Shown piece by piece: positions 4,107 to 50,624 of a DNA stretch of 64,000 nt. Source of the DNA: a virus. The notes beneath the pieces were generated by a model that had not been told where the DNA came from, did not search any database, and saw only the letters and a list, made by a program, of their open reading frames with translations. The position numbers were made by a program, and so were the translations under genes. Each line of letters opens with the position of its first letter. Position 1 is the stretch's first letter. The DNA lies in IMG/VR virus record IMGVR_UViG_3300008117_000001. One strand, 5' to 3'.

Positions 4107-5702
4107 ATGATAGTTTTATCAAAAGGTCAGACGGCACAATTTAAATTTATTTTTACAGACTATGATGGATCTATCTATGATCCAGCAAATCTTTCTACTC
4201 CAGTAGATGTTGTAGTTTATGTATTAAGAGGCGACACTGGTTCTGGCCCCGTAATTGATGGTCCATTCTCCCTTCTTCTAGATAATGGAAATGAAAATGA
4301 TAATTCAATAGTCAGATCAGCAGTTGGCGAGTATACCTTTACATATAAAGTTCCAGAAAATTTATATGAATATGTTTATACAATAATAGCCAGAACAAGC
4401 AGTACTGCGCAAAACATAAACGCTACAGCGACTTTTCAGGTAAAAAATTCTGTAACATCTGTTTCTTCGGTAACAATAACTTCACCAAAATCATCTGTCG
4501 TCAACTATAAGCCAACCTATCAGCAGTTAGATAGAAGAAACACAAGCACAATATTATTGCTTGGTCACGCTGACGGCATGAGATTAAACTATCCTATTAG
4601 AATTAATTCGATTCAACATGCAGTTGATTTGATGGGCGCCAATACAAATAGCCCTCTTTTGAGAGGAGTCTTAGACGCCTATTCATGTGGGGCTAGAGAT
4701 ATTATGATTTGCGCTGTCGCTCCAATGTCGGAATATGTGGATAGCTACGCTCAAAGAAACTTATCCACAACAGTATTCTCTATTAACGACGCTACGCCAG
4801 GTACTCAAAGCACTTTCTACGAAAGATACTATGACCGCCTAGAGCAAGCATACGCAGATATAATTGATTTAGATTTTGTTGATATTGTAGTTCCATTAGA
4901 AGCTAGTATTATGAATACTGGTGGAGTAGATTTTGTTACTCAATTGGCTAATTACTGTTCTTCTTTTCATAATTCTACTGGCTTTATTCAGATGGGAGTT
5001 ATTGGTTCAAGATCTGATGGAGTAAAGTCTTCGGACATATCTATTTTGGAAGCTAATCCATTATTTACTAATAAATTCACTACTTATCTAGATGGCCAAA
5101 TAGCGTCTGATAAAGGTAGATACGTGGTTCCGATTTATGGCGAATTAGTTTTCCAGCATCCACAAATTAAAATTAGCTATACCTCCAGTGCCGCAGCAGC
5201 ATACGCTGGCATGATCGCAGCGAATCAGCAAGCTAAGGCAATTATTCGTACTAGAGTGCCAGGAGCGCTATCTTTATTTGGGACAGATTTAACATATTCA
5301 GATTATGAGAGATTAGAAGCTATAGGAGTGAACACTGTCTATAGGGGAAGAAAAACCAGAAGAGCTGTTCCTTTTGAGATATATGTTACCAATGAGTACA
5401 CTATGGCCCATGAGGAATCTGTGTTTAGCAAGCTCTTTCAAATGAGACTAGTTGCTGCAGTTGTTAGCGAAATTAAGGGAATAGCAGCTTCTGGTCATGA
5501 TTTGCTAGCATTTGACAGTATTATAGATGATACTAAAAAATATTTACAATATTTAAAAACTAATAAAGCTATACTAGATTATTCTTTTAATGCAAGATTT
5601 TCTGATACAACAAAGGAAAAATTAATTTTTGATATTGAATTAATATCATATTTTGCTATTAAAAAGATTAACTTTTCTTTAGCAGCTGGTCCAGGAGCTT
5701 GA
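4107..5702 (+). CDS. Tail-sheath-like protein (paralog) with N-terminal Ig-like domain
   Basis: From about 4545: ILLLGHADG...AVDLMGANTNSPLLRGVLDAYSCGARDIMICAV, then LDFVDIVVP, SAAAAYAGMIA, LEAIGVNTV and C-terminal RLVAAVVSEIK...YLQYLKTNKAILDYSF, paralleling the blocks of the major sheath at 6680. Confidence 0.7.
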   Translation: MIVLSKGQTAQFKFIFTDYDGSIYDPANLSTPVDVVVYVLRGDTGSGPVIDGPFSLLLDNGNENDNSIVRSAVGEYTFTYKVPENLYEYVYTIIARTSSTAQNINATATFQVKNSVTSVSSVTITSPKSSVVNYKPTYQQLDRRNTSTILLLGHADGMRLNYPIRINSIQHAVDLMGANTNSPLLRGVLDAYSCGARDIMICAVAPMSEYVDSYAQRNLSTTVFSINDATPGTQSTFYERYYDRLEQAYADIIDLDFVDIVVPLEASIMNTGGVDFVTQLANYCSSFHNSTGFIQMGVIGSRSDGVKSSDISILEANPLFTNKFTTYLDGQIASDKGRYVVPIYGELVFQHPQIKISYTSSAAAAYAGMIAANQQAKAIIRTRVPGALSLFGTDLTYSDYERLEAIGVNTVYRGRKTRRAVPFEIYVTNEYTMAHEESVFSKLFQMRLVAAVVSEIKGIAASGHDLLAFDSIIDDTKKYLQYLKTNKAILDYSFNARFSDTTKEKLIFDIELISYFAIKKINFSLAAGPGA

Positions 5703-5703
5703 T

Positions 5704-6567
5704 ATGGCATACATTAATAGAGATTTTCCTAGTTTTTCAGAAAACCTTAGATACGGTTATCCTCAGCTTCAAGCCCCTGGATATAGAAGATTAGATCAAG
5801 ATGGTGTAGAGGAAGTATATTCTGGCAATCTAAGCTATCTAGATTTCATTGGTTTAGTTAAAAAACTTTGGGAAGAAAGCTATCCAGCAATACCAATATT
5901 GCCACTAAGTGTAAATAGAGAAACTTCTGTAACTTATAAAGATAATGGTGGAACCGACGTTACTTCTGGAGATCTCTCTTCTGCCCCGTCTTCAACCTAT
6001 GTTGGCCTAGATGAGTTTCCTGCAATTATAGGATATCACTTAGAGTTAAGAAAGGCTCATACAACAGAGCCAAAGCCAAGAATGAGACAAAATGTGCTAT
6101 CTAACACAGTGACTATTTATGGCCAACGTTTTCAGAATATTGTTGGCTTTACTGTAATGTCTAAAGTTGGCACCTTTCAGGGTTCCAATGGAGCAACAAC
6201 TAGAGATGACCTAGATGCAGCAGTTCTATGTGATCAGGTAATTGAGGCATTTGAAGATTTCATGTTGGAATATACATCAATTTTCAAATCCGCCGGAGCA
6301 TCTGAATTGGTCTATTCTAGGCGTTTGTCTGATTCCGAGATTAATCGTGAAGGAAAAGACGTTCATAAGAGAACTGTTACATATATGTTAACTACGGAAA
6401 AGACTTTTGCAATGTCTAATAGAAGAATTGAGCAGATTGTAGTTGACGCTAGAACCTGGATGGCATATGAGAAGCAGTTACTTAGAGATCAGTTGGCTAC
6501 CCCTAATTACGAGGGTACAACTGGGAATATTATCGATCTATTCCAGACTGCAACTCCTAACGTCTGA
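5704..6567 (+). CDS. Tail terminator/completion-like protein
   Basis: Lies immediately upstream of the sheath; the pattern PAIIGYHLELR...KPRMRQ...YGQRFQNIVGFTV...EAFEDFMLEY...KRTVTYMLTTE is consistent with tail terminator folds. Assignment rests largely on synteny. Confidence 0.55.
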   Translation: MAYINRDFPSFSENLRYGYPQLQAPGYRRLDQDGVEEVYSGNLSYLDFIGLVKKLWEESYPAIPILPLSVNRETSVTYKDNGGTDVTSGDLSSAPSSTYVGLDEFPAIIGYHLELRKAHTTEPKPRMRQNVLSNTVTIYGQRFQNIVGFTVMSKVGTFQGSNGATTRDDLDAAVLCDQVIEAFEDFMLEYTSIFKSAGASELVYSRRLSDSEINREGKDVHKRTVTYMLTTEKTFAMSNRRIEQIVVDARTWMAYEKQLLRDQLATPNYEGTTGNIIDLFQTATPNV

Positions 6568-6679: not shown

Positions 6680-7942
6680 ATGGCTATACCTGGAGTAAAA
6701 ACATTAATTAGAGATCGCTTCTACAGTGTGTCGCGTCAGGATACACCTGTTGGTCCTAGAATAGTAGCGATAGCACGTCGTAGCACGGCTAACAATACTG
6801 GTTCAGTAGCAGATCTTGACGTTGTAAGAGTAACTAACGAGGCTGATGTAATCACCGCTTTTGGAGATGGATCAGACGCTCACCGTGCATATCTAGAGCT
6901 AGTTTTGGCTGGAGCTGGAAGAATTTATATTGTACCACTTCCTTCTGATACAAAGTGGGACACTGATCCGGATAGCCCTGTATCTACTGGAACTGTAACT
7001 AGCGTAAGTTATGGTGGCTCGGTTTTCGACGCTGCCTTTATTGCAGCAGAAGCTGCTATTCCCGACATTATTATTCCTTGGGGAAGAGGCGCTCACCCAG
7101 ACGATTGGCAGAGCCCAGCTACGCCTAGCGATGACGCAAAAATTGGCTTTGTTGCAGATAATACGTCAACCCCATCAAGCAACTGGGCCTATCAGGTAGC
7201 TGCAAAGGTGAAGGATATTTCTGAAAACATCAACCCTTGCATCGCAATCATGGGAGTCAAGCCATACGTTTCAACAACAGAAACTATGACTCCTGGTCAA
7301 GTTTCTACACATTTGGCACTGACAAATCTTCCCGACAGAAATGCTAGCGCTTCCTTCAAGGAAGTTGGCCCATATGTGGTTGTAGTCGCTGCGGAAATCA
7401 AGCCCGTAAACTATCAGTCTGGAACAACAGAGTTTGGTTACGCTAACGGAGCCGCTCATGTTGCTGGCGCTTTAAGCTTGCTTCCTTCATATAGTTCACT
7501 AGTAAATAAGGCTCTCTACAATGTAGAGGCTGTTCGTTATGCCCCTTCTAGAACTCAGCAGACTGCTCTCGCTACTAAGGGTGTTAATACTGTTGTCATT
7601 AACTTTAATAAGATTCCAGTATTCGGAGAAGGTTTAACATTTGGTTGGGCAACATCAGACTACACCCGTCTCTCAACAAAGAGAATTGTAGACGACGCCA
7701 CATCAGTTGTAAGACAAGCCTGCCAGAGATTTGTTGGCGAACCATCAAACATTCAAACAAGAAATGCGATGGAGACAGCAATCACTTCTGGCTTGAGAGG
7801 AATGCAAATTGTAGGAGCCTTGCTTGGTAGTGACTTTACAGTCTCGTACATACCAAATGAAAACAAGGCGATTGTAGACCTCATTTTAACACCTGCCTTC
7901 GAACTCAAAGAGATCGAAGTCAGAGTAGCCATTAATCTATAA
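6680..7942 (+). CDS. Major contractile tail sheath protein
   Basis: GGAGG RBS. EADVITAFGDGS...AYLELVLAGAGRIYIV N-domain, ALATKGVNTV, and C-terminal RLSTKRIVDD...RFVGEPSNIQTRNAMETAITSGL...IVDLILTPAFELKEIEVRV, the hallmark sheath C-terminal block. Confidence 0.9.
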   Translation: MAIPGVKTLIRDRFYSVSRQDTPVGPRIVAIARRSTANNTGSVADLDVVRVTNEADVITAFGDGSDAHRAYLELVLAGAGRIYIVPLPSDTKWDTDPDSPVSTGTVTSVSYGGSVFDAAFIAAEAAIPDIIIPWGRGAHPDDWQSPATPSDDAKIGFVADNTSTPSSNWAYQVAAKVKDISENINPCIAIMGVKPYVSTTETMTPGQVSTHLALTNLPDRNASASFKEVGPYVVVVAAEIKPVNYQSGTTEFGYANGAAHVAGALSLLPSYSSLVNKALYNVEAVRYAPSRTQQTALATKGVNTVVINFNKIPVFGEGLTFGWATSDYTRLSTKRIVDDATSVVRQACQRFVGEPSNIQTRNAMETAITSGLRGMQIVGALLGSDFTVSYIPNENKAIVDLILTPAFELKEIEVRVAINL

Positions 7943-8652: not shown

Positions 8653-8696
8653 AATAGGTGCATGGGAGTTATCTTCCATGCACTTATTTATTTTTT
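8653..8696 (+). terminator. Rho-independent terminator after sheath-tube operon
   Basis: 16-bp stem AATAGGTGCATGGGAG (8653-8668) / CTTCCATGCACTTATT (8673-8688) with two G-U pairs, TTAT loop, then TATTTTTT. Confidence 0.8.
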
Positions 8697-8706
8697 GGAG
8701 ATTTTA

Positions 8707-9504
8707 ATGGCAGAAATTAAGACATTTACTTTTAGAAAAAGTAAACAAGAAGAAGCAGTTCAGCAAAGTGGTAATGACCTTTATGACTGGGAAAAATATC
8801 TATCAACAATGTCATACTCTGGGGCAGACGCTGTTGCGACAATCGTTTTGCCGATTATCGGTCCAGATGGAAATGTTGAGTCTCAAGGCGATTCTATAAA
8901 TCTAGGAGAGTTACAGACTATATCATATTCTGTCCACAGAGAAAATTCCCCAGTAAGAACCCTTGGTCACGTTAATGTTCGGGGCTTTATTAAGGGTGGA
9001 AGAACTATAGCTGGCAGCCTCATCTTTACAGTATTTAACGAATACGCTTTTTATAGAATAAAAGAGTTTAAGCAATATCTGGCAAGAAAAACTGGATACT
9101 TTGCCCCTCTAGCGGACATGTTGCCGCCATTTGATATTGTTATTACATTTTTCAATGAATACGGTCTCGGTTCAAAAATGAAAATATTTGGAGTAACAAT
9201 AGTTGACGAAGGCCAAACCCTGTCTGTAGACGACTTAATTACAGAGCAGACCTACACTTACATGGCTAGAGGAATACAACCACTAGTAAGAATGCCAAAT
9301 GACAGCACTGTATCAAGAGATACTTCTTATACAGATGAAATGAAGGCTAGGGATCAAATTAGTACAAATGTTTTTGGCGATTTGATTATAACGGATCTTG
9401 CTCAGCTACAAAGTCAAGCTGAAGAAACAGCTTATTATAATACAAAATATAATAAACCCACAGTTCCAGCCCAGGTTATTCAGCCTGGAAGATTGCACCT
9501 ATAG
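8707..9504 (+). CDS. Tail tube paralog 2 (minor tube/initiator-like)
   Basis: ATG 8707 after GGAG (the track start at 8662 lies inside the terminator). YSGADAVA...LQTISYSVHRENSPVRTLG...RTIAGSLIFTVF...LPPFDIVITFFNEYG aligns by eye with the 7971 protein. Confidence 0.75.
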   Translation: MAEIKTFTFRKSKQEEAVQQSGNDLYDWEKYLSTMSYSGADAVATIVLPIIGPDGNVESQGDSINLGELQTISYSVHRENSPVRTLGHVNVRGFIKGGRTIAGSLIFTVFNEYAFYRIKEFKQYLARKTGYFAPLADMLPPFDIVITFFNEYGLGSKMKIFGVTIVDEGQTLSVDDLITEQTYTYMARGIQPLVRMPNDSTVSRDTSYTDEMKARDQISTNVFGDLIITDLAQLQSQAEETAYYNTKYNKPTVPAQVIQPGRLHL

Positions 9505-30000: not shown

Positions 30001-33000
30001 AGACGGTGGGGTCTTCGAGAACGCTGCAAGTCACTTCAAGGATATTGGAAAATCTGGAAGAAAGTTTTTGGCAAACGAAGGCGAAGTGCCCATGGACGCC
30101 GAAGAATTTGAGGGATTTGTCAATGAGGCTATGGCAGAAGACAGACGATCTTTCGGTGGTGCAACATTTATGGCAAATATGTTCACCCTACTTCAGTATG
30201 AAAGCAAATTCATTTTAAATAATGAACTAACGCTAGTGCCGTCTTCTGGAATATTAGAATTAGATCGTCCTTTAGGCTTCTCAACTTTTATAGACAATAT
30301 GGTTGATGTGGATGGTTTGTCATTTATTGGCGGAGCAACCTCAACATATGTAAGAATGCCCTTACCATCAGTTTACGCAAATAGACCTAGCATATCTCTT
30401 GATCAAGCTGCTCTTTCTCAGTATTCTGTAACTTCTTCTGAAGCGCAAAGAAATGCAGATGATTATTCTTTCGAGTATGAATTGGCAAACCAAATATCAT
30501 ATGAAGAATGGGGTTCACCTGGTGACCTACCGGCTTCTCAACAAACAGCTGCTGAAGCAGAACAATTCTACATAGCGATGAGATGGCCATATAATCCTGG
30601 TAGTGATGATATCAATGTTTCTGACGAGGCCATACAAAAGTTTAAAGAAAAATATAATTTTACAGATTTGTATGGAACAGCACAAGATTATAAAAATAGA
30701 AAAGTCTTAGTAGTTAGCCCTAGAACTAATAGAGCTGTTGTATGCGCTCCGGCATACTTCCTTTGGGGCGAAGATGATGATGACACAGCAGCTGTTGTTT
30801 CACCCGACGCCGCCTGGTATTTGGGCAACTTTGTATCTAAAGACCTAAGTTTTAAATTGTCAGCTGATGAAGAGGAAACAAGTATATTAGATCAGCTTCC
30901 GTCATGGATTAACACTACACTAAGCGCAGTACAGGCTGTTGGTGATTTTAAAAATAATTTGATAGGTTACGCCGGTAAAGTTTTAAGCTTTACCAGCGGT
31001 GCCGGCATTATAGGAAGTAAGATAGCTAACAGATTAGGTGTATCTATTTTTGGCAACGAAGATGAGCTAAATTACGAAAACGAAAGTGGCTTATCTATAA
31101 ACCCGCAACCAGTAGAGTGTCTCTTTGCCTTTGTTCCAGATGATGTTCCTGTAGGCGTTGTATCTTCCTCTGCAGCTCCTATCAAAAAGTTTAAAGCAAA
31201 AGACGGCCCCTCAATGGCTGATAGCATGATTCTTGGATTTGGAAATTATACAATGACAGAAGATGGCCAACTTGCTGAATTAACAGCAAGGAAAGCTAAT
31301 GCTCAAGATCTTAGAAATGAACTAGGTGGAGGTATTAGTTCAAGATTTGTAATTTATGATAAAGATTTAGTGGATCCACCAAATATATTCTCAGAATGGG
31401 TTCCAGTAAATGCTGAGATCTCTTCTAGTAGATTTGATTTTGGCGGTAATGCGTTAGCCGTACCAGATGGAAGAGATAAACCATTCTCTGGTTATTTTAA
31501 TACTTTGTTAGAAATATCTAGCTTTAGTGATGTTTCAAATATTGATCAGTCTGTTCTTGATGGCGAAGTTGCCGACATGATTGGTGATAGCTCTTTGTCT
31601 AGACAGTATTTGTATTCTATTTTGGATGAAGAATTATCAACAACTGGAGATGTAGATTCCGCCAAAGGAAGAGCTGCATTCTTAAGTGTGTATGATCCAT
31701 TGGATTCTGTTGGAGTAGAAGCTAGATCTTATTATGATGAGAATTTTGACCCTAATGTTTCGGTCATAGCTGGTGATGGAAGAAATCTTAGTGAAGCAAA
31801 TGACATATGGGATCAATTTAGATTTGGATATCACACATACGATAGCGTTAAGGGAATATTTGCAAAAGTTTACGGAATGGATCCAGAGTCCATTGATCCT
31901 TTCCCAGAAGAGTTTTCTAGAATATTAGGATCTTCTATTGAGGATAGTTTTAAAAACTTTGAGGATTCGAACATTCCAATTGCTGGACTGGCTGATACCG
32001 AAAATACAGCTGTCGATGAATTAGCAATCCTGCTGGGCGCTGACTATTTTAATATTCCAAACAATCCACAACTAGGTGGGCAAGGCGTTCCTATAACTAA
32101 TGCAATTGAAAGAAGAAAAGCAGTAGAGTTTATAAGAAAAAATTATATAGATTTAATAGCCGCAGAAAACGAGTCAGACGCCGGAATCATTCAATACTTT
32201 AACTCAACAATTGCTGATGCACTTAATGGTATTAGAGAAAACTTTTTTGACTCTCCAGTAATTAATACAATTCTTGAATACGCGTTAGATAATTCCAAAA
32301 AACCAGAAGAAGCCATTGCTCTAAATGAAAAAATTAAAACTCCAAAACAGCTTTTCCTTTTAATGGTTGGTTTATTTAGGCAAAAGCTTTGGAACTCAGC
32401 CTATGGCAGAGCATGGTTGGTTTTGAAGCCTAACCGTAAAAGAGGTTTAATTACGAGTGGAGGCGGAGGATCTGACGGTCAGTGGTCATTCAAACCTATC
32501 GATAGGATATTTGAGGCTTTCATAAATCCATATAGCCAGTACGCTAAGGATGACAATAAGTTCCTTCAATTATTAGTTTCAACAAAATCTGAGGGAACTG
32601 GTGCTACGACATTTATTTCTGGAACACTTGAAGATATTGGTAATTTCTACGATAGAAATATCGGACCAATTATGACCGCAATAGGTGACGGTCTTTCTGG
32701 TCTTCTTGGAATGTTCAAGCTTTCCATGATGCAAATGGGTTATGCCATCTCAGAGGTTGGCAATTTTAGTAAGCAAGCACATATTTTAAACAAAGTTCTG
32801 AATGACTCTATTTATTATTCATTAGGAAGAGAGGGCACCTTATTAAGGGCTGTTGATAATCCGTTTACTCGCGAATATGGCGAACCCGTATTGGAAATCA
32901 GACAGCCCTTCCAAAGAATCCATTATCTAAGTTCATTTTCTCATATTATATCAAATCAGATTCAAGAGAATTTGAATGGCGTGTCAACCGTAGTTACCGC

Positions 33001-38858: not shown

Positions 38859-40028
38859 ATGCCAATATATGGAATAAAAAATAAAGCTGATATATTAGTT
38901 AATGTTTTAAACGGCTTACAAAAAAACGCAGGCATATCTGCAGTCTACCCGGGCTCTATAGCTAGAGCGTTTGCGGAAGCTTTCACTAGTGAAGTTTCTG
39001 ATCTTTATGAGGCATTAAGATTCAACCTTACCCAAGGTGATCTAATGACAGCATCAGGTCGTAACCTTGACTTAATAGGCGATTTATATGGCATAACTAG
39101 AAGAAATATTAGCGATTATTCAAGTCAAGATCGTGAATCTTTTAATATTCAGTTTTTTATAGACAAGCCACATAGTTCCGATGTCACTATACCATCAGGG
39201 ACTTTAGTATATAATGATGTGTCTAATTTTATTACAAAACAATATACTTATAAGCTAGCTGGAGATGTAATTATAGGCAGAGGATCTACCAGAGCTTACG
39301 GAAGAGTTGACCCTAACTTTACGGACAACGCCTATGTGGCGCCCGTAAGTACGCTTACTAAACATAACGCATTTTCTCCCGCAGGAGTAATTATATTTTG
39401 CTCAAACCCCAAAGAAGTATATTCCAATACAAGCGCAGAGTCAGACACTAATTTTAGAAGAAGAATCATAGCTTCCATAAAGGCTAAGGCGCCTGGTACA
39501 GTTGAGTCTGTAAGATTTGCTGCTCTAGCGGTCAGAGGGGTCAGGGACGTTAGAATTAGAGAGGGCACGTATGGCGTTGGCTCCTGTGACGTAATAATCG
39601 TACCAGAAACAGCTACCGATATGTCTAATCTCCCTCAAAGAGTCATGGTTGCTGTAAGTGCAGTAAAGCCAATTGGTGTTAGATTTAATGTCAGAATTGC
39701 AGAAAGAGTTAGCATCAACATAGAGGCTACCATTACTTTGCCGATGGGCTTGAGCGAAAATCTGGCTAGCGGAGTCAGAAACCAAGCATCGCTCTTTGTG
39801 AAGAGATACTTGAATTCGCTTACTGTAGGCGATATGGTTTCTATGTCAGAGATTGAAAGACAAATTAAATTATCATCAGATTATATTCGCAGCTGCTATA
39901 TAAGCGCAATGCTTGCGGACGGCTCAAATATGCCACTCGTTGATTTTTCGTTAGATACAGTTAAAAAATATCCAGTAGCAGGCGCAATAAACATTAGTTC
40001 TGTTATAATGGGTGGAACAAATTATTAA
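38859..40028 (+). CDS. Baseplate J-like protein
   Basis: PGSIARAFAEA, ASGRNLDLIGDLYGITR, AESDTNFRRRI, AALAVRGVRDV, GSCDVIIVP and KPIGVRFNV are standard gpJ/gp47 motifs. Confidence 0.9.
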   Translation: MPIYGIKNKADILVNVLNGLQKNAGISAVYPGSIARAFAEAFTSEVSDLYEALRFNLTQGDLMTASGRNLDLIGDLYGITRRNISDYSSQDRESFNIQFFIDKPHSSDVTIPSGTLVYNDVSNFITKQYTYKLAGDVIIGRGSTRAYGRVDPNFTDNAYVAPVSTLTKHNAFSPAGVIIFCSNPKEVYSNTSAESDTNFRRRIIASIKAKAPGTVESVRFAALAVRGVRDVRIREGTYGVGSCDVIIVPETATDMSNLPQRVMVAVSAVKPIGVRFNVRIAERVSINIEATITLPMGLSENLASGVRNQASLFVKRYLNSLTVGDMVSMSEIERQIKLSSDYIRSCYISAMLADGSNMPLVDFSLDTVKKYPVAGAINISSVIMGGTNY

Positions 40029-40056
40029 TTTACAAATTAATATTTAAGGATAATTG

Positions 40057-43000
40057 ATGAAGCAGTATTTGTTACTTTTAAAAAGTGGGGACTTCAATAA
40101 GTCTGGCAACACATGGACAAGTAGTGCTATAAACCTATACAAAAATAGCTCTTTCACCAATTATTCTTATGTCAGATCAAGGTATGGCCTCAATACAATA
40201 GGTGATAATACCTATGTTGGACTTGAGCTCACTTCCCCATCTTATAACGGCGACGTTGCAACGCCGCTATCAGACAATGCAGCATACGTAACAGATATCG
40301 GTGAAATCGTTTATGACGACGCCACACCATCTCTTTTGAGATTCATAGACACAACATCCAAGATAGACGTTCTAGCCTACAAGCATTTATTCACCAATCT
40401 TCCTGGAACAGAAGTCCCAACTTTTAATCTTCAGATGTATGAATCAGATTCGGAGGATGGTCCGTGGTTAAAGTCGATTCTGTCTTTTGATTCAAATGTC
40501 ATCTTTGTTAGGGACTGCAAACCTTGGATAAAAATAGAGTTAGAAATATTTACTGAAACTTTAGATACTAGCGATTTAGGTCTTTTATTTTATTTGGAAA
40601 TTGGTATACATGATCCAATTGCCCCTGTAGCGTCTGAACATGCAAGAAATATTCTAAAGAGATTCCCAACATGGACAGATATGTTTGCGGATTCGGAAAA
40701 TCCAGCAACTCCGTCCTTGTTTGTCCCCAGCTCTACCGCTGGAAAATTTTTAACAGCTCTTGTCCAAGAGTCTCTTGATAACTTTGATAACGAATTAAAC
40801 CTATATGACATCAACCACTATATATCAAGCGCAGATGAAAACATGCTGGCTTGGGCCTATGTGTCTTACGATGTTCCTGTTAATATCCTAAAGGTTTTAG
40901 GCGATGATGTTCCGTTAATACAGATGGATAGTCTAGCTTCTTTTTATAAGTCTCAATTGACTGATTATGTATATTATTACAGTCAGACGAATAAGCAAAT
41001 AATATGTATGCGAGAGTTTTCATCATTAACAATCAATGATGTTGAATATGATCAGTATCCCCTGCATGTTCCAAATAACTTTGATGAGTTCGGTGCAAAG
41101 GTAGGTCTTCCTAGACTTCTATTGGAGACTAATGCCAGATACAAAAAGAGAATTCTTGACGTAGCTTTAAACTATCCAGCAGCGCATATAGATGGATTCA
41201 AGAGAACAGTAAGAAGAGAGCTAGACATTTGGAAGGCCTACGGTGTTGAGCCAGATTCTAATTATATTGGAGCCACTCCGGATGTTATTGAAATTTCTGA
41301 CATGGAAAAAACAACTCCATGGTTCACTCCTTCTGGCAAACCTTTAAAGCCATTTGTTGATTTAATTGAAAGCATAAATGAAAGATACCCATCAAATATT
41401 GGCTATGTAAGATGGGAAGAAGGTTATTGGGATTACGGCGGAGCAGACGGAGAAGGAATATCTTCAATCCCTGCAATATACGATGTCGAAACTAGCGCAT
41501 CGCCACAATATTATCAACCAGGCGTTGGCGACTATGCTGACGCTAAATTAATACTGGAAGCAGAAGAAAAAGCTACAACATCTTTTTCTGGTTATGCATC
41601 CATTTCCGGTGTTTACATAGATGGGATTGAAGAGGTATATGCTCCGATAAAAGTTGATTACTCATGGTATCTTTCTTATTTAAAGAGAGTTCCAGATTAT
41701 GAGGCTGGAAGAAGAAAGTCTGGAGTCTCCCAAGATGTTGGAGTCGGCTTAACATATGAAATATCAATGGCTACGCACAATTTCTACGCCACACCATCTA
41801 CATTCTATGTTAATTTAAACTATCTAGATAGAGATGATTTCTATGTTGGAAATAGATTGCCACAAAATCATCCTGCTAGTCCAGAATATAATTTAATTAG
41901 AATATTCAATGATGACGGATACACGTTATCTTCTTTGCAGTTTAGAGATAAGACATATAACAATATCTACTACAATGCCTCTAGTTCTCCTAGTGTAAAC
42001 ACAATTAATTTTGATGATGTAGATTCTGTTAAAATAGTCTTTTCAAATGGAGGATGGAATCATATTACTCAGTCGTATGATAAGTCTTTGGCTACAGCAA
42101 ATTACCGCGTTGCTTTCACTAGATCTACTCCAAATACAACGTGGTATGCCAATCCATCTTATGGTCAGTCTGCAGAGTTGGCGTCACCAACTCAATTCTC
42201 TTACAGAGACGCTAGCATTAGAATAGGTTCGACAGTATATGAGACAAAAGTAGAAAGTTTTAATACACAAACAATTACTTCTTCTTTTTACTTGAATAAT
42301 AATAATGATTTAACTGAATCTGGCACCCAAAATTACTCTATGCAAATAGATAGTTTGGTAAATAGGTTGATTATTCCTCCGGAAGCAACACCGCAATATA
42401 TACATATTGATAACGTTAAACCTCTTGGTTTAACCTATTTTAATGGCGACACTTTGATAAGTGATATTTATGGTGGCGCAGTTATAAATCCAGACGATAA
42501 CGAAAGATACCTGGTTCCTTCCTCTCCAAATATAAGCTATAAAACATATAATTCTTCAAATGTAGAAATTTCTACGCCGGAATACTTTGATTCCGCTACA
42601 ATAAACTATAATGCAACCCCTTCATATTTTACTTTTGAGTCGGCAAGTAATAATTTTTATCCGATTTATTTTACAAAATACAGTTCATTTACATCTCAAA
42701 CTACTCCTCAGCTATTTAGTGGATACATAGATTCTCTGGAAAATGTTTATGAAAGTACAGATGAAGCAAACAATATATTCTTTAATTCAGATGATTTTCT
42801 AAAAAAGATATCTTTATCTAAAGATTCTTTTGGGTTAGATTCAGACACCACTTATATTGTCAAGGATGCACAGCTAATATCCGAAACACAATATATTGAT
42901 CCATATGTCAATAACAAAAATTCTTTGATTCTAGGTTTGACTAGCGCATTTGCAGACAACGAAAATGTTGATATTGATGTAAGAATTGCTAGAGATGCCC

Positions 43001-44652
43001 AAGATGTAGTTCAAAATAATCCAGCACTTCATACGGGTTGGTTATATTTAGATGAAAACGAATATTACATATACTCTAATCCTGTCACAGATTCTGCTAC
43101 AGGAAGATTCTTTTCTCTGCCACTCAGTCAGTATCCTAGATCTGGCTCACCGATAATGGTGACAGTTGGTGAAGAAAATTATAGAAATATTCTTTTCGAA
43201 GACGCAGCAACGCCGGGTAATATTGTATTTAATAATACAGAAGATATTTATGGCAATGTAAGCAATGCCATTTATCTAGCATATGAAAATGTTGAAAACA
43301 TTTCAGTTAAAGACTCATATACTGGAGTTGAGTTATTTAGCAATTTATCAACCTCTACAAATGAACTCAGCTGCTTCAGTGAGGCCACACCGTCGGTTTA
43401 TGGAAGAAAATACACCGTCAATTACGATGTAAAAAATGCCTGGTATGTTGATAAAAATGTATACGATGAGAATACTGATAGCTATAATTCAAATATCTAC
43501 TTTAGCTCCACTCCTAATGCAAGTGAAATCTACTCTATTACCTATGAGTCTTCGCTAAATGACAATACCTATTCCATAGATCTATCCTTAGTCCCATCTA
43601 CCAATCCTATAGATGAAGGATTCATTTATGTGTCAAAAACAGACTACCCATTTAGTTCCGCCAAAACATTATTGTCTCCTGCAAATATATCCAATTCACA
43701 AGATGACTTGATGTATCTAACTATAATATCTTACGATGAAAATAATAATTTCAAGCCTGGTCAAACCTTCCATGTTTATGGAGATATAGTTTCAGCTACA
43801 CCAGCTTATGTCACAACAAATGACAATGGAATAGGGAAAGCCATAATTAGATATTCGTATACCGGAGAAGAAGTATACGAGTCAAGCAATTTATATGTAT
43901 CTGGAATTGGTTCGGCAACTCCATATGGTGGCATAAATAGCCAGAGTCAAGGTTATGTGACATCAGTGCCATTTGGTGTAAATATATCAGATCCCAAGAT
44001 CCTAAGATTAAAAGCCGCTCCATCTTCTCTGATAATCAACGCCGGCTCAGATCAAGGTATCTCCATAGTGGGACAGGTGGTTTGGGATGATCAGCCTTGG
44101 CCCAAGGTACTGCCTGTTTCCTGGAATAAGGCTAGAACACTAAAAGATTTGTTTGCAGCAACACCAGACTATACAACGTATACTTCTTCGGATGGAAAAT
44201 TGGAAATAGCCAATATTGCAACTGCGCAAGACTCAGCGACTCCGGGATACTGGTTTGCTAGAGTAAATATTTCAAATGAAGAGTACGCTAAAAGCATTTT
44301 GTTGGCAGATCAAGAAATTAATGCAGGACAAGACGTTACTATATCTGGAGATGTTATTTATTGGTATGAATCCTATGATACAATTCAGTATGACCAAGAA
44401 TTAAGCCCACCCTTACCCAATATTTATACTTCAAATAAACAGCAAGGTTCAGAAATCATAGCAACTCCTAACTTTGTTTATAAGCATAGCGATTCAAATA
44501 CTATTGTTTATAGTAGCGCAACTCCGAATTGGAGTCCGCCAAGATGGGTGCCGTTAAGAAAGTATGACCAATATCAAATGGGAATTTTTGGCTCAACACC
44601 AAACCATATATCTGATTATGAGTTAGTTCACCCGGATCATGAGGAACAATGA
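40057..44652 (+). CDS. Large baseplate wedge protein (gpI/gp7-like core) carrying 15 Ala-Thr-Pro motifs
   Basis: FDEFGAKVGLPRLLLETNARYKKRIL...AHIDGFKRTVRREL is the gpI-like signature; follows gpJ; the rest is beta-rich. AAGGA RBS before ATG 40057. Confidence 0.7.
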   Translation: MKQYLLLLKSGDFNKSGNTWTSSAINLYKNSSFTNYSYVRSRYGLNTIGDNTYVGLELTSPSYNGDVATPLSDNAAYVTDIGEIVYDDATPSLLRFIDTTSKIDVLAYKHLFTNLPGTEVPTFNLQMYESDSEDGPWLKSILSFDSNVIFVRDCKPWIKIELEIFTETLDTSDLGLLFYLEIGIHDPIAPVASEHARNILKRFPTWTDMFADSENPATPSLFVPSSTAGKFLTALVQESLDNFDNELNLYDINHYISSADENMLAWAYVSYDVPVNILKVLGDDVPLIQMDSLASFYKSQLTDYVYYYSQTNKQIICMREFSSLTINDVEYDQYPLHVPNNFDEFGAKVGLPRLLLETNARYKKRILDVALNYPAAHIDGFKRTVRRELDIWKAYGVEPDSNYIGATPDVIEISDMEKTTPWFTPSGKPLKPFVDLIESINERYPSNIGYVRWEEGYWDYGGADGEGISSIPAIYDVETSASPQYYQPGVGDYADAKLILEAEEKATTSFSGYASISGVYIDGIEEVYAPIKVDYSWYLSYLKRVPDYEAGRRKSGVSQDVGVGLTYEISMATHNFYATPSTFYVNLNYLDRDDFYVGNRLPQNHPASPEYNLIRIFNDDGYTLSSLQFRDKTYNNIYYNASSSPSVNTINFDDVDSVKIVFSNGGWNHITQSYDKSLATANYRVAFTRSTPNTTWYANPSYGQSAELASPTQFSYRDASIRIGSTVYETKVESFNTQTITSSFYLNNNNDLTESGTQNYSMQIDSLVNRLIIPPEATPQYIHIDNVKPLGLTYFNGDTLISDIYGGAVINPDDNERYLVPSSPNISYKTYNSSNVEISTPEYFDSATINYNATPSYFTFESASNNFYPIYFTKYSSFTSQTTPQLFSGYIDSLENVYESTDEANNIFFNSDDFLKKISLSKDSFGLDSDTTYIVKDAQLISETQYIDPYVNNKNSLILGLTSAFADNENVDIDVRIARDAQDVVQNNPALHTGWLYLDENEYYIYSNPVTDSATGRFFSLPLSQYPRSGSPIMVTVGEENYRNILFEDAATPGNIVFNNTEDIYGNVSNAIYLAYENVENISVKDSYTGVELFSNLSTSTNELSCFSEATPSVYGRKYTVNYDVKNAWYVDKNVYDENTDSYNSNIYFSSTPNASEIYSITYESSLNDNTYSIDLSLVPSTNPIDEGFIYVSKTDYPFSSAKTLLSPANISNSQDDLMYLTIISYDENNNFKPGQTFHVYGDIVSATPAYVTTNDNGIGKAIIRYSYTGEEVYESSNLYVSGIGSATPYGGINSQSQGYVTSVPFGVNISDPKILRLKAAPSSLIINAGSDQGISIVGQVVWDDQPWPKVLPVSWNKARTLKDLFAATPDYTTYTSSDGKLEIANIATAQDSATPGYWFARVNISNEEYAKSILLADQEINAGQDVTISGDVIYWYESYDTIQYDQELSPPLPNIYTSNKQQGSEIIATPNFVYKHSDSNTIVYSSATPNWSPPRWVPLRKYDQYQMGIFGSTPNHISDYELVHPDHEEQ

Positions 44653-47879: not shown

Positions 47880-50624
47880 ATGGCTACGCACGAATACGTT
47901 AAATATATACAGTACACACTGGGTGCTGCAGGTTTCTATACAAAAGCAGTAGATGGAGATTATGGTTCATCAACCGCTTCCGCAGTAAGATCTTTTCAGA
48001 TTGCAAATAATCAAAGATACATTGACGGAAAAGTTGACAGTGAAACTAAATGGTATTTGGCCAAATATTGGCTTAATTTAATTGCAACAGATAATCAGTT
48101 ATTTGAATCCTGGAAAACGTTTGCCTCAGAGGATATTAGAAAATATATACAAAAGGTTGAAGAGATGGGTTTGGCGCCAGATATTGGTTCTGGTAAAACC
48201 TATAGAAAAACAACATTCACCGGAGTTGCTGGGCCAAGTCTGGCTTCTGATGTAATATTTTTTGAAATACCTCAATCAGTTCTAAGTGTTGAAAAAATAA
48301 TCATAGTTCCAGATCAAGACATTAGATGGAGAAATTATAAGGCCATTTCTTTTGGTTGGCATTCATCTTTTTCTACAAATATATTTGAATATCCAAACAT
48401 TGAGGCGCTGGATCTATCTGCGGTATCAACCAATATAGAAATTCCAATGAACGGAAGATCTGCAGAAAGCGTAAGATATGTATGGGTAAATCTTGTTGGT
48501 GGCGGAATATACGGCCTAGGTCAGGGTGAGGGGTTTGGCATTTCTGAAATCAATGTTGCAGCATTGGTAAAAGATCCAGATATAACACAGGTAGTAGATT
48601 ATGAGGACCCAATTAGAATTAACGTAAAAGCTAATTTTATTACTTCCTTAAACGATGTCACTCCATCTTCTCCGGCCTTGATTAATATTTCCAATGTAGA
48701 AAGAGTTTCGGCTCAGCAAACTCAATATGTTTCATCTCTTAGTTATTCTCCAGATGGAGTGAATCAAAGAGAATTAACTTTTACCAGTGAATCTGGTGTT
48801 AATCTTAATAGTGTTGACTACTTGTTGACTGGTGAGTATGAAATAAAGATTCCTAATTTTAGAAATAATGTGGTAGCTGGAACTTTTTCTTTGCAAAATT
48901 TAACTCTATCGGATACAACAAGTCTAGGTCAAACAGTTTCTGGTTCACCAATATCGATAAGGCAAACGCAAGAAAATAATGTTATACTAGAAACATCTAG
49001 CACATTTTATGGAGATGCACTTACCAGAACCACTGAGATAGACCTTTCTTCTGGTTATAGATTAAAGAATCGCCTGGGACAAATATTTCCTGAAGGAAAA
49101 AATTCAATTAATTATGGTGATGGAATATTGCTTCTATGCGATTCTAATGGCAAGCCAATAGGGCTGCCAACACTAGCGCAAATATCAGCATCAGTGTCAA
49201 ATCCTCAAACATTTTCTCAAGAAGAAAGGGATATAGCTTACGGTTATTTCTCGTTAGTTAATGAACTTCCTTCTGACGGTTTTAGATATGGTTTCTATGA
49301 TTTAAGTACCCAAGAGCTATTAGGGCATTCTTTAAGTTATGTCGACTTTTATACGAGGTCATCTTTTACTAATTTTGAAAATATATACATAGCCATTTGC
49401 GCCTTAGACTCAGATGGAGCGAATGGTGATAACGAGTTTGTTGGACAAAATAATTCAACAACATTTATTCCAACAAGAATACCATTGAAGTATTTAACTC
49501 CAATCTATTCCGTTAAGCACGGTGGTGGATCCGCTGTTCAAATAAATAACATTAGCGCCAATTTGTCAAAATTCGATGCATGGGAACTCCCAATCTCTAA
49601 TGGTTCTTTTAATAAGAAAATTAAAATAAAATCTTCAGTTCAATATACAGATTGGAAATCCATATATTCCGGACAAGAAATGTTGGCAGAATATTCTACA
49701 ATGGATTTATCTGATGTCTCTTGGTCTAAGATATATGGTTATGGTTACTATGATGTCGTTAACGAAAATCCTTTAATCATAGACAGTAAATCTATTAAAT
49801 TAAGAAGAACGCCAATTTTAAGTTGGAATCATAAAACAGATTACCGTCAGTCAATAGGTGGAATTGTCCGTCAAGAAGTTAACATTTATACTAGATCAAC
49901 GATTGATTCTCCTTGGGTGAAGGTCGATGACTCGTTGATATCAGATGTAGATTGTGAAAATGGATTAATCAAATTCAAAAAACGAATTATACCCAGCGAA
50001 ACAACACTGGTAAAAGTTGATTATTCTACAATAAACAAAAATTCTCTAGTTAGACACATTAATGGTACGCCTATACCGTTAAACCCATTTTTAAACTCTG
50101 ATAGCATACAATTTGATGAGCCAATGTATGTTTACTTGACGCCTAAAAATATCTATAAAAAGAATTCACCTAATCAGTCTGATGTAAATGTATTTAGTTA
50201 TGAAAAAGTAACAGAATTTCAATACAGCAATCCGGTTAATTTTACCTATAGTTCAACAATATTTGATGAAACATCAATAGACTACGATCCGTTTGCCCTG
50301 TGTGTAGCTATTATATATGTTACAAATAATCCAAATAAAGTTAAACCTAAATTATTTGACTTAAGATTAAGAGGAGGCGGAATTAAGGCTGACATTGAAA
50401 ACTCAGATATAATTAACGAAGTTCCTGAAATTCTATCCCATTGGGATACCTATCCCGCAAGCGGAACATCCTATATGAACGGTGGATATGTTATAATTAG
50501 AGTGCCTGAAAATGTTAAACAAAACTTTACTTCGCCACAAGAAATATATAATATTATTAGAAATAACTTAACAGCCGGAATTGTTTTCGATTTGCAAAAC
50601 ATGGAAGGGGAAGATTGGTCTTAA
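47880..50624 (+). CDS. Baseplate structural protein with N-terminal peptidoglycan-binding domain (PG_binding_1-like)
   Basis: VKYIQYTLGAAGFYTKAVDGDYGSSTASAVRSFQIANNQRYIDGKVDSET matches the PG_binding_1 consensus (V..lQ..L...G....DG.fG..T..AV..FQ......DG.v...T). Confidence 0.7.
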   Translation: MATHEYVKYIQYTLGAAGFYTKAVDGDYGSSTASAVRSFQIANNQRYIDGKVDSETKWYLAKYWLNLIATDNQLFESWKTFASEDIRKYIQKVEEMGLAPDIGSGKTYRKTTFTGVAGPSLASDVIFFEIPQSVLSVEKIIIVPDQDIRWRNYKAISFGWHSSFSTNIFEYPNIEALDLSAVSTNIEIPMNGRSAESVRYVWVNLVGGGIYGLGQGEGFGISEINVAALVKDPDITQVVDYEDPIRINVKANFITSLNDVTPSSPALINISNVERVSAQQTQYVSSLSYSPDGVNQRELTFTSESGVNLNSVDYLLTGEYEIKIPNFRNNVVAGTFSLQNLTLSDTTSLGQTVSGSPISIRQTQENNVILETSSTFYGDALTRTTEIDLSSGYRLKNRLGQIFPEGKNSINYGDGILLLCDSNGKPIGLPTLAQISASVSNPQTFSQEERDIAYGYFSLVNELPSDGFRYGFYDLSTQELLGHSLSYVDFYTRSSFTNFENIYIAICALDSDGANGDNEFVGQNNSTTFIPTRIPLKYLTPIYSVKHGGGSAVQINNISANLSKFDAWELPISNGSFNKKIKIKSSVQYTDWKSIYSGQEMLAEYSTMDLSDVSWSKIYGYGYYDVVNENPLIIDSKSIKLRRTPILSWNHKTDYRQSIGGIVRQEVNIYTRSTIDSPWVKVDDSLISDVDCENGLIKFKKRIIPSETTLVKVDYSTINKNSLVRHINGTPIPLNPFLNSDSIQFDEPMYVYLTPKNIYKKNSPNQSDVNVFSYEKVTEFQYSNPVNFTYSSTIFDETSIDYDPFALCVAIIYVTNNPNKVKPKLFDLRLRGGGIKADIENSDIINEVPEILSHWDTYPASGTSYMNGGYVIIRVPENVKQNFTSPQEIYNIIRNNLTAGIVFDLQNMEGEDWS

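What the first reader, a model, noticed from the sequence alone, without database searches (positions are those of the whole stretch)
40258..44526. Ala-Thr-Pro tripeptide repeated 15 times in the wedge protein and confined to outer virion proteins: candidate modification or docking sequon
Seen: 15 dispersed A-T-P motifs in the 1532-aa wedge protein (DVATPL, DDATPS, NPATPS, IGATPD, FYATPS, PEATPQ, YNATPS, DAATPG, SEATPS, VSATPA, GSATPY, FAATPD, DSATPG, IIATPN, SSATPN), against roughly 0.4 expected from approximate residue frequencies. They use varied synonymous codons (gca acg ccg, gcc aca cca, gct aca cca, gcg act ccg), so selection acts on the protein, not a DNA repeat. Six more copies occur in the sheath paralog (4791), terminator (6496 and 6550, the latter at the C-terminus), major sheath (7118) and paralog B (54649, 54820). 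I found none in the about 7600 aa of tape measure, polymerase-like and hub proteins, nor in the very A/T-rich tail fibre. Known: some mycobacteriophages glycosylate virion proteins with phage-encoded glycosyltransferases, and actinobacterial O-mannosylation targets Thr/Ser in Pro/Ala-rich contexts. Inference: a sequon for virion surface glycosylation or other modification, or a repeated binding site for a decoration protein. No modifying enzyme is visible in this window.
Basis: partly seen in the sequence, partly recalled or inferred. Interest (0 to 1): 0.8.

Follow-up and report, generated by a model that had tools for sequence, protein, structure and literature searches.

The report
Ala-Thr-Pro tag on phage baseplate
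A 1531-residue outer baseplate protein of an uncultured ~190-kb water phage carries the three-residue tag Ala/Ser-Thr-Pro about 40 times more often than chance, and because some lineages lost all copies at once, something probably reads it, most likely one of the phage's own sugar-adding enzymes, though no chemistry has been done.

Summary
ORF 40057-44652 has 15 A-T-P (0.35 expected) plus 4 S-T-P, encoded by varied codons.

- **Spread.** About 250 homologues down to ~30% identity carry 7-26 copies. This holds in genomes of 36-56% GC.
- **Motif.** It is [A/S/T]-T-P-[S/N/G/D] and sits in loops. T and P are islands of conservation.
- **Not required by the fold.** Short homologues from cultured phages lack it, and two motif-bearing loops are insertions. 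Distant homologues lose 5-10 of the reference protein's 19 sites and show 1-11 copies at other positions, so the total stays high. At least two nested lineages lost nearly all copies at once (AU p=0.0003), and those sites decayed in place.
- **Reading.** This pattern fits one common reader better than local structure. The best candidate is Thr O-glycosylation by two GT2 enzymes. They are conserved in all 7 motif-bearing genomes that were read in full. GT2 domains were found in 9 of 9 lineage genomes and 0 of 3 motif-less relatives.
- **Other virion proteins.** Conserved copies occur in the terminator C-terminal tail, the sheath and the sheath paralogue. Most other outer proteins have none, so "confined to outer virion proteins" holds only in part.

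There is no chemical evidence. Loss of the enzymes in the motif-less lineages could not be tested. The scan has noted the same tag in at least seven other genomes of this phage group.

The parts
40057..44652 (+). Gene for the 1531-aa outer baseplate (wedge-module) protein that carries 15 ATP and 4 STP motifs. It has an N-terminal beta-sandwich (1-187), a conserved core (~189-540) and a C-terminal chain of Ig-like domains.
   Evidence: (phrog_21059)
38859..40028 (+). Baseplate_J / gp6-like wedge subunit gene directly upstream. It fixes the baseplate context.
   Evidence: same gene order in cultured phages
40258..40266 (+). ATP site (T at residue 69 of the ATG-started 1531-aa protein; residue numbers in the entries below use the same numbering). 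[A/S]TP in 77 of 105 homologues.
40321..40329 (+). ATP site (T90). TP in 90 of 94 aligned homologues. The loop appears shorter or absent in the consensus of the motif-less clade (read by eye).
40705..40713 (+). ATP site (T218). T and P invariant in 103 of 103. It lies in an 11-residue insertion that cultured short homologues lack.
41272..41280 (+). ATP site (T407). P invariant, T in 81 of 103. Second half of a tandem ATP...ATP insertion loop; in this phage the first half (residue 398) reads VEP.
41788..41796 (+). ATP site (T579), immediately before a predicted strand.
42124..42132 (+). STP site (T691).
42385..42393 (+). ATP site (T778).
42571..42579 (+). STP site (T840), weakly conserved.
42613..42621 (+). 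ATP site (T854), in a 6-residue loop between predicted strands.
43207..43215 (+). ATP site (T1052). TP in 96 of 105.
43384..43392 (+). ATP site (T1111). TP in 87 of 102. Reads A-T-D in the motif-less clade consensus.
43507..43515 (+). STP site (T1152). T and P in 103 of 104. In a 7-residue loop between predicted strands.
43795..43803 (+). ATP site (T1248).
43915..43923 (+). ATP site (T1288).
44158..44166 (+). ATP site (T1369).
44236..44244 (+). ATP site (T1395). In 43 homologues T is replaced by N or D with P retained.
44461..44469 (+). ATP site (T1470). TP in 86 of 102.
44518..44526 (+). ATP site (T1489).
44593..44601 (+). STP site (T1514). TP in 95 of 102. In the low-confidence C-terminal tail.
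6496..6504 (+). [A/S]TP in 31 of 31 homologues that have the extension.
6550..6558 (+). ATP three residues from the C-terminus of the same protein. ATP in 30 of 31. The extension and both motifs are absent from three of the most distant homologues.
7118..7126 (+). ATP in an indel-rich variable loop of the tail sheath protein (6680-7942). Kept in 31 of 33.
4791..4799 (+). ATP in the sheath-paralogue protein (4107-5702). ATP in 21 of 40, with STP, SSP or PTP in a few others. Lost in one subclade.

Best explanation
[A/S/T]-T-P, usually followed by S, N, G or D, is a short linear motif read by one common trans-acting factor. It is not a feature that the fold needs.

The most likely reader is a phage-encoded cytoplasmic glycosyltransferase that attaches a sugar to the Thr hydroxyl on loops of already folded tail proteins. 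That would give each baseplate arm roughly 15-25 O-linked glycans, with a few more on the sheath, the sheath paralogue and the C-terminal tail of the 287-aa tail protein. The best candidate enzymes are two GT2 proteins that are core genes of this phage group. In the relative G002 they lie at 99.6 and 102.8 kb, which corresponds to about 1.5 and 4.7 kb past the end of this window.

What is shown: the enrichment, its conservation, the turnover of positions with the number kept, the block losses, and the co-occurrence with GT2 genes.

What is inferred: that a reader exists (I put this at about 0.7), that it is an enzyme rather than a binding partner, that Thr is the acceptor, and that the group added is a sugar. 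The confidence given is for the whole statement.
For: 1. **Size and spread.** 15 ATP against 0.35 expected. Every one of the 105 close homologues has 6-20. Nearly all long-form representatives down to 27% identity have 7-21. Loci of 39-56% GC also carry it. Over seven genomes the wedge has 141 [AS]TP against 7.4 expected, while all five other orderings of the same residues are at chance.

2. **Strict grammar in every structural context.** Position -1 is A, S or T in 98% of cases and G is avoided. Position +2 favours S, N, G or D. T and P are islands of conservation (0.75 and 0.80) against flanks of 0.45-0.6. T-P is enriched 3.5-fold, but D-P and N-P are not.

3. **The fold does not need it.**
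- Homologues from cultured phages have 0 ATP, and the loops at residues 218 and 398/407 are 11-residue insertions.
- Homologous loops carry unrelated residues in other lineages (32 of 41 have no Pro). Even so, totals stay at 15-25 through loss and gain.
- A set of long-form proteins has 0-2 copies, with TP at chance and no replacement motif.

4. **Those motif-less proteins are nested within motif-bearing clades.** Well-supported branches force at least two independent losses. The alternative in which they are basal is rejected (difference in log-likelihood 85, AU p=0.0003). In sister pairs at 37-50% identity, 9-11 of 10-12 sites have decayed in place, and T is the residue least often kept.

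5. **The same tag in other tail proteins.** It is invariant inside variable loops and in a C-terminal tail. Three copies are conserved in a 260-aa virion-block protein.

6. **Candidate enzymes.**
- GT2 domains occur in 9 of 9 lineage genomes and 0 of 3 motif-less cultured relatives.
- GT2a and GT2b orthologues occur in 7 of 7 genomes read in full, at 50-85% identity.
- The best solved relative of GT2b is GmaR (E=1e-6). From my own knowledge, GmaR is a cytoplasmic flagellin O-GlcNAc transferase.
Against: - There is no chemical evidence of any modification.
- The GT2a/b genes sit among thymidylate synthase, a cytosine methyltransferase and nuclease genes. They could equally serve DNA modification. 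The GmaR match covers only the generic N-terminal ~95 residues.
- The GT2 co-occurrence amounts to a single phylogenetic contrast.
- T-P-[D/N/S/G] is also the textbook sequence of a type I beta-turn. At some sites T is replaced by N or D (residue 1395) or by F, M or L (residue 407) with P kept, which fits a structural role there.
- More than half of the sites are positionally conserved.
- The motif is not avoided in non-virion proteins. An apparent depletion in three genomes (1 against 6.0) did not replicate in four more (3 against 3.2).
- Large inserted distal domains carry none. That is odd if the purpose is to coat the surface.
Confidence: 0.4

Rival explanations
1. It is a purely structural motif: a favoured tight turn (an ST-Pro type I beta-turn preceded by a small residue) that caps loops leading into beta strands of this beta-rich protein. 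Under this reading there is no modification and no reader.
For: - The sequence matches classical turn preferences (T/S/D/N, then P, then D/N/S/G).
- DSSP on the two models puts most sites in 6-7-residue loops, 0-7 residues before a strand.
- Many sites have high pLDDT.
- More than half of the sites are positionally conserved.
- T exchanges with N or D at residue 1395 and with hydrophobic residues at 407 and 854, with P kept.
- Related fibre repeats of the A-[S/T]-P-x-F-T-G type occur in a tail fibre of G003.
Against: - Full-length homologues exist with 0-2 copies and no substitute.
- Nearly all sites were lost together, at least twice.
- Sites appear at homologous loops that carry unrelated residues elsewhere.
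- D-P and N-P are not enriched.
- The same -1 rule (A/S/T, never G) holds before strands, before helices and at a free C-terminus.
- Other beta-sandwich proteins of the same phage and the inserted domains have none.
- The motif sits at different topological positions in different domains, and the segments around the sites are not homologous to one another.
Confidence: 0.2
2. It is a docking code. The loops are binding sites for a multi-copy partner such as a decoration or cement protein, an assembly chaperone, or a prolyl isomerase. If that partner is lost, all the sites become free to decay.
For: It explains block loss, a conserved number with turnover, and presence on several tail proteins just as well as the enzyme model does. 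A conserved C-terminal tail motif is typical of docking peptides.
Against: A core of three or four residues is very short for protein-protein docking and is more typical of enzyme sequons. Some 20 sites in very different local contexts would all have to fit one partner. No candidate partner gene was identified.
Confidence: 0.15
3. It is the target of a different covalent modification: hydroxylation of the Pro (with or without sugar on the hydroxyproline) by the phage's 2OG-Fe(II) oxygenases, or Thr phosphorylation by an unrecognised proline-directed kinase.
For: - P4H-type oxygenase domains (PF13640) occur next to a GT2 in G002 and G005, and in seven copies in G003. One of those lies between an ATP-rich fibre and a 125-aa protein with three ATP.
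- From my own knowledge, Ala/Ser/Thr-Pro are hydroxyproline glycomodules in plants, and Skp1 is hydroxylated at a Thr-Pro.
Against: - PF13640 is absent from G004 (90% complete), whose wedge has 17 ATP.
- No Pkinase domain was found in four genomes.
- In motif-less lineages T decays faster than P, which points to Thr as the key residue.
Confidence: 0.1

Closest known systems
Virion O-glycosylation of mycobacteriophages by phage-encoded glycosyltransferases (Freeman et al. 2023, Cell Host Microbe, cited in PMC12619734; the paper itself was not held)
   Same: A tailed phage that carries its own glycosyltransferases, with structural proteins as the proposed targets. One target here has its motifs in a C-terminal extension of a tail protein, as reported there for capsid and tail-tube subunits.
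   Different: Here the main target is a baseplate protein with ~20 dispersed loop sites. A defined tripeptide sequon is inferred. The phages are unrelated and uncultured. No glycan has been detected, and homology of the enzymes was not tested.
Cytoplasmic flagellin O-GlcNAc transferase GmaR of Listeria (PDB 22ao, the best solved relative of GT2b)
   Same: It has a GT2-type catalytic domain and acts in the cytoplasm on Ser/Thr of a protein that later forms an extracellular assembly (its function is from my own knowledge).
   Different: The similarity is E=1e-6 over ~95 N-terminal residues only. As far as I know, no A-T-P sequon is known for GmaR.
Atypical virus-specific sequons of chlorovirus PBCV-1 capsid glycosylation, and N-glycan sites of enveloped viruses
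   Same: The logic is similar: a virus-encoded enzyme, or a short sequon whose number is maintained while individual sites turn over.
   Different: Those are N-linked and occur in eukaryotic viruses. The comparison rests on my own knowledge and was not tested here.
ST-Pro / Asx-Pro type I beta-turn
   Same: The residue preferences at i, i+1 and i+2 match, and the motif is located in loops.
   Different: A generic turn does not explain the specificity for Thr and for a small residue at -1, the 40-fold excess in one protein, or the loss as a block.
Third baseplate wedge component of cultured Bacillus and Moorella jumbo phages (KLEB27-3 gp042, Edson 0840, MTATph1 CDS0049; phrog_21059)
   Same: The gene position directly after Baseplate_J is the same. 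The core is homologous at 22-29% identity over residues ~189-537.
   Different: Those proteins are 519-590 aa and have no ATP. They lack the motif-bearing insertion loops, the N-terminal sandwich and the ~1000-aa Ig-like extension.

Membership tests
Phage virion O-glycosylation system (mycobacteriophage type) | Phage-encoded glycosyltransferase genes are present | tested here: met
   GT2 (PF00535) was found in 9 of 9 related genomes. GT2a and GT2b orthologues were found in 7 of 7 genomes read in full. There are none inside this window, and the window's own genome is not held.
Phage virion O-glycosylation system (mycobacteriophage type) | Glycan mass detected on virion proteins | not testable with these tools
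   This needs mass spectrometry or glycan staining. The phage is uncultured.
Phage virion O-glycosylation system (mycobacteriophage type) | Acceptor sites lie in C-terminal extensions of capsid or tail-tube subunits | tested here: inconclusive
   The 287-aa tail protein has two conserved motifs in a C-terminal extension. Most sites, however, are internal loops of a baseplate protein.
Phage virion O-glycosylation system (mycobacteriophage type) | Motif presence depends on the enzyme (the two are lost together) | tested here: inconclusive
   Presence and absence agree in 9 motif-bearing genomes against 3 motif-less cultured ones. Contigs of the nested motif-less lineages could not be obtained.
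Structural type I beta-turn (ST-Pro turn) | Residue preferences are T/S/D/N at i, P at i+1 and D/N/S/G at i+2, in loops | tested here: met
Structural type I beta-turn (ST-Pro turn) | The fold requires it, so it is retained wherever the fold is retained | tested here: not met
   Long-form homologues with 0-2 copies exist. Short homologues have none. Homologous loops carry unrelated residues.
Internal repeat domain (the motif as the signature of a duplicated unit) | The segments around the sites are homologous to one another or regularly spaced | tested here: not met
   In an all-against-all hhalign of 24 site segments, only 778 against 854 reached 68% probability. The other matches cover the motif alone. 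Spacing is irregular, 19-199 aa.
Baseplate wedge module protein (phrog_21059; third wedge component) | The gene lies directly after Baseplate_J and is homologous to virion structural proteins of cultured phages | tested here: met
Baseplate wedge module protein (phrog_21059; third wedge component) | Structural match to a solved wedge protein | tested here: inconclusive
   Foldseek found nothing for residues 1-819. VIA matched only the N-terminal sandwich, to XepA and to tail proteins, at Z 7-9. The profile search of PDB sequences found nothing.
Proline-directed Ser/Thr phosphorylation | A protein kinase is encoded by the phage | tested here: not met
   No PF00069 match in G002-G005. Atypical kinases and host kinases are not excluded.
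Prolyl hydroxylation / hydroxyproline glycosylation | A P4H-type oxygenase is present wherever the motif is | tested here: not met
   PF13640 is absent from G004 (90% complete), whose wedge has 17 ATP.

The most novel reading that the evidence does not exclude
A large group of uncultured aquatic jumbo phages uses a defined three-residue O-glycosylation sequon, [A/S]-T-P. It is read in the cytoplasm by the phage's own GT2 enzymes and coats the baseplate arms and parts of the tail with glycans. To my knowledge this would be the first sequon defined for any phage virion modification. It would also be a system that whole lineages have switched off together with all of their sites.
Probability: 0.4. 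Interest if true: 0.85.

Novelty: new variant of a known kind. Interest (0 to 1): 0.7.

Why it matters
Phage virion glycosylation has so far been documented mainly in mycobacteriophages and, to my knowledge, without a defined acceptor sequence.

A simple, predictive tag on a baseplate protein would let glycosylated virion proteins be recognised from sequence alone. It would also point to enzyme-substrate pairs (GT2a/GT2b with short A-T-P peptides) that can be tested by recombinant expression without culturing the phage. And it would raise the question of what a sugar coat on the host-contacting end of the tail does, for example in adsorption, protease resistance or evasion of host recognition.

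Tried and rejected
- **Internal repeats.** hhalign of the site segments showed no repeated domain.
- **DNA-level repeat.** Rejected because the codons vary.
- **Avoidance in non-virion proteins, as a test for a reader.** The 4-mer was depleted in the first three genomes (1 against 6.0). It was not depleted in four further genomes (3 against 3.2), so I dropped this argument.
- **Base composition as the cause.** Rejected. The motif persists from 36 to 56% GC. The motif-less proteins have similar A, T and P content. The other orderings of the same residues are at chance.
- **P4H-type oxygenase as a universal partner.** Absent from G004.
- **Hanks-type kinase.** None found.
- **TOD1/MUCI70-like glycosyltransferase.** Found only in G002 and G005.
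- **Solved relatives.** Foldseek on residues 1-819 gave nothing, and the profile search of PDB sequences gave nothing. Pfam found nothing on the protein.
- **Solvent exposure of the sites.** The tools give no model coordinates, so only DSSP and pLDDT were used.
- **Contigs of the motif-less clade.**
  - Searches of viral, metagenome and genome collections returned only motif-bearing relatives or a 2.7-kb fragment.
  - The motif-less proteins come from ENA and Logan assemblies.
- **Literature.** The Freeman 2023 paper is not held. Two full-text searches gave nothing specific. The 'moraphage' paper (PMC12619734) describes phages whose shared-gene list is annotated with T4-type structural proteins. 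I took these to be a different group but did not test this.

Full report
**1. The observation**

The window is one co-oriented block of phage virion and tail genes, 33-40% GC. The ORF at 40054-44652 starts at a TTG, but the ATG one codon later is the likely start, because the near-identical database protein P0001 has 1531 aa.

- It holds 15 A-T-P tripeptides where composition predicts 0.35.
- ATP is by far its commonest tripeptide. Of its 22 T-P dipeptides, 19 are preceded by A or S.
The three giant proteins (7631 aa) and the fibre at 254-2353 have none.
- Within this window alone, those six are not a significant excess (about 3.6 expected over all other ORFs).

**2. What the protein is**

- The gene follows a Baseplate_J / gp6-like gene. 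It matches phrog_21059, "virion structural protein".
- Its only relatives among sequenced phages are 519-590-aa proteins of Bacillus phages KLEB27-3, Edson and WH1 and of Moorella phage MTATph1. These share 22-29% identity over residues ~189-537. In the three records examined (KLEB27-3, Edson, MTATph1) the gene sits in the same position after Baseplate_J.
- AlphaFold models of residues 1-819 (pLDDT 77) and 779-1531 (pLDDT 81) are mostly beta.
- The N-terminal 187 residues form a sandwich resembling XepA/YomS and phage tail proteins, at Z 7-9.
- The C-terminal half resembles chains of invasin/intimin-type Ig-like domains.
- It is therefore an enlarged third component of the baseplate wedge module.

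**3. The motif**

- Over ten diverse homologues the pattern is [D/E/F]-[G/S]-[A/S]-T-P-[S/N/G]-hydrophobic.
- Position -1 is A (61%), S (28%) or T (9%), and G is avoided.
- T and P are islands of conservation (0.75 and 0.80) between flanks of 0.45-0.6.
- T-P is enriched 3.5-fold, while D-P and N-P are not.
- On the models the sites lie in coil, usually 0-7 residues before a strand and often in 6-7-residue loops between strands. They occupy different topological positions in different domains.
- Segments around the sites are not homologous to one another, and the spacing is irregular.

**4. Spread in relatives**

- All 105 close homologues (99-30% identity) have 6-20 ATP against 0.15-0.8 expected.
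- An exhaustive search of cluster representatives found 198 matches. Nearly all long forms carry 7-21 ATP.
- Further loci with 39-56% GC also carry it.
- About 18 sites have T-P in at least half of the 105 homologues. T218/P219 and T1152/P1153 are essentially invariant.

**5. Other proteins**

- two sites in a C-terminal extension of the 287-aa tail protein (31 of 31 and 30 of 31), which three of the most distant homologues lack together with the extension;
- one site in an indel-rich loop of the sheath (31 of 33);
- one site in the sheath paralogue (21 of 40).

In each case the flanks vary while A-T-P-[N/S/G/D] stays. The two copies in paralogue B are not conserved.

A census of seven whole related genomes gave these [AS]TP counts:

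| Protein class | Observed | Expected |
|---|---|---|
| Wedge protein | 141 | 7.4 |
| Other virion-block proteins | 96 | 64.6 |
| Non-virion proteins | 31 | 35.1 |

- The excess among other virion-block proteins comes mainly from a few proteins. One is a 260-aa protein just upstream of this window, with three conserved copies.
- Two cultured control genomes are near chance (19 against 14.2 and 25 against 20.3).
- The other orderings of the same residues are at chance everywhere.
- Most outer proteins, including five large baseplate or fibre proteins in this window, have none.

**6. Is it needed by the fold? No.**

- (a) The cultured short homologues have 0 ATP. In the shared core, the loops carrying sites 218 and 398/407 are 11-residue insertions.
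- (b) Distant homologues keep only about half of the reference sites and have 6-11 sites at other positions. Most of these lie at clearly homologous loops where the reference has unrelated residues, 32 of 41 without Pro. Totals nevertheless stay at 15-25.
- (c) Six long-form representatives (P0140, P0162, P0163, P0177, P0181, P0184; 31-50% identical to one another) have 0-2 [A/S]TP copies. Their T-P is at chance and no tripeptide replaces the motif.
- (d) Trees of the core were built with the motif residues masked and rooted on the short forms. These six proteins fall deep inside motif-bearing clades.
  - P0177 pairs with P0174/P0176 (support 99).
  - The other five sit beside P0133, P0134 and P0149, which carry 10-16 copies.
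  - Well-supported branches force at least two losses.
  - Holding the motif-less proteins with the outgroup is rejected (difference in log-likelihood 85, AU p=0.0003).
- (e) In sister pairs at 37-50% identity, 9-11 of 10-12 sites have decayed in place. T is kept least often (11 of 45), compared with P (17 of 45) and A/S (21 of 45).

Repeated loss of all sites together is what one expects if every site depends on one external factor. It is hard to explain if each site is held in place by its own local packing.

**7. Who reads it?**

- Pfam GT2 domains occur in 9 of 9 genomes of the group and in 0 of 3 motif-less cultured relatives.
- Two GT2 genes are core genes with orthologues in all seven genomes read in full, at 50-85% and 58-76% identity. 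In G002 they lie about 1.5 and 4.7 kb beyond the position matching this window's end.
- The best solved relative of GT2b is GmaR, at E=1e-6 over ~95 residues.
- P4H-type oxygenases sit beside another GT2 and a halogenase in G002. They are missing from G004, whose wedge has 17 ATP.
- No Hanks-type kinase was found.

My preferred model is therefore Thr O-glycosylation by the conserved GT2 enzymes.

**8. Caveats**

- Nothing chemical is known.
- The GT2 genes sit among nucleotide-metabolism genes and may modify DNA instead.
- The GT2 co-occurrence is one phylogenetic contrast.
- T-P-[D/N/S/G] is also an ideal type I turn, and at a few sites T exchanges with N, D or hydrophobic residues while P is kept.
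- Non-virion proteins do not avoid the motif.
- Large inserted domains (Lcl, FG-GAP, CBM) carry none.
- Exposure could not be computed.
The motif-less proteins come from ENA and Logan assemblies that the other collections do not hold.

**9. Earlier notes of this scan**

I read these after reaching the above reading. They report the same tag in at least seven other genomes of this phage group, with similar readings. One states that two sugar-transferase genes are missing in a motif-less lineage. I could not check that claim.

**Verdict**

The sequon-or-docking reading is partly supported, by evolutionary evidence only. I put the probability that a common reader exists at about 0.7, and the probability that it is Thr O-glycosylation by the phage GT2 enzymes at about 0.4.

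Noticed in passing
L082:6457-9234 (G003 101457-104234), L082:9943-10320, and the oxygenase between them at G003 104257-104550 (- strand): In relative G003 a 925-aa tail fibre has 8 ATP. Some lie in repeats of the type S-A-T-P-T-F-T-G, which from memory resemble the known A-S-P-x-F-T-G phage fibre repeat. A 125-aa neighbour has 3 ATP. A 2OG-Fe(II) oxygenase gene lies between the two.
   Followed up: partly
L067:13411-14193 (G002 32411-33193), about 1.7 kb upstream of the window start: A 260-aa virion-block protein with no family match carries three ATP that are conserved in 5 of 5 orthologues (0.06 expected).
   Followed up: partly
L073:7121-13598 (G002 140121-146598): A cassette of two 2OG-Fe(II) oxygenases (PF13640), a tryptophan-type halogenase (E=1e-99) and a GT2, directly after a 1394-aa fibre-like protein rich in Ala, Thr and Pro. 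This is an unusual tailoring set for a phage.
   Followed up: partly
L072:10712-13205 (G002 124712-127205): A cluster made up of a DXD sugar-transferase-like gene, a methyltransferase, a TOD1/MUCI70-like glycosyltransferase and a second methyltransferase. It is present only in G002 and G005 among the four genomes searched.
   Followed up: partly
window 40054-40059: The mechanical ORF starts at TTG 40054. The ATG at 40057 gives the 1531-aa length of the database homologues and is the likelier start.
   Followed up: yes
wedge homologues P0004-P0080 (insert sites between reference residues 691-710, 864-883, 944-1026 and 1152-1172): Many homologues carry 160-1140 aa of extra domains (Lcl/DUF1566, FG-GAP, CBM_4_9, Big_1) inserted at a few hot-spot loops. 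These are probably swappable binding modules, and they carry essentially no A-T-P.
   Followed up: partly
window 47880-50624: A 914-aa baseplate-region protein begins with a peptidoglycan-binding domain (PG_binding_1, E=4e-10), which suggests a tail-associated cell-wall-binding or lytic protein.
   Followed up: no
window 7971-8633 and 8662-9504: Two adjacent paralogous proteins (220 and 280 aa) after the sheath gene both match phrog_9206, labelled 'major head protein'. From their position they look more like tail-tube paralogues, so the family label may be misleading.
   Followed up: no
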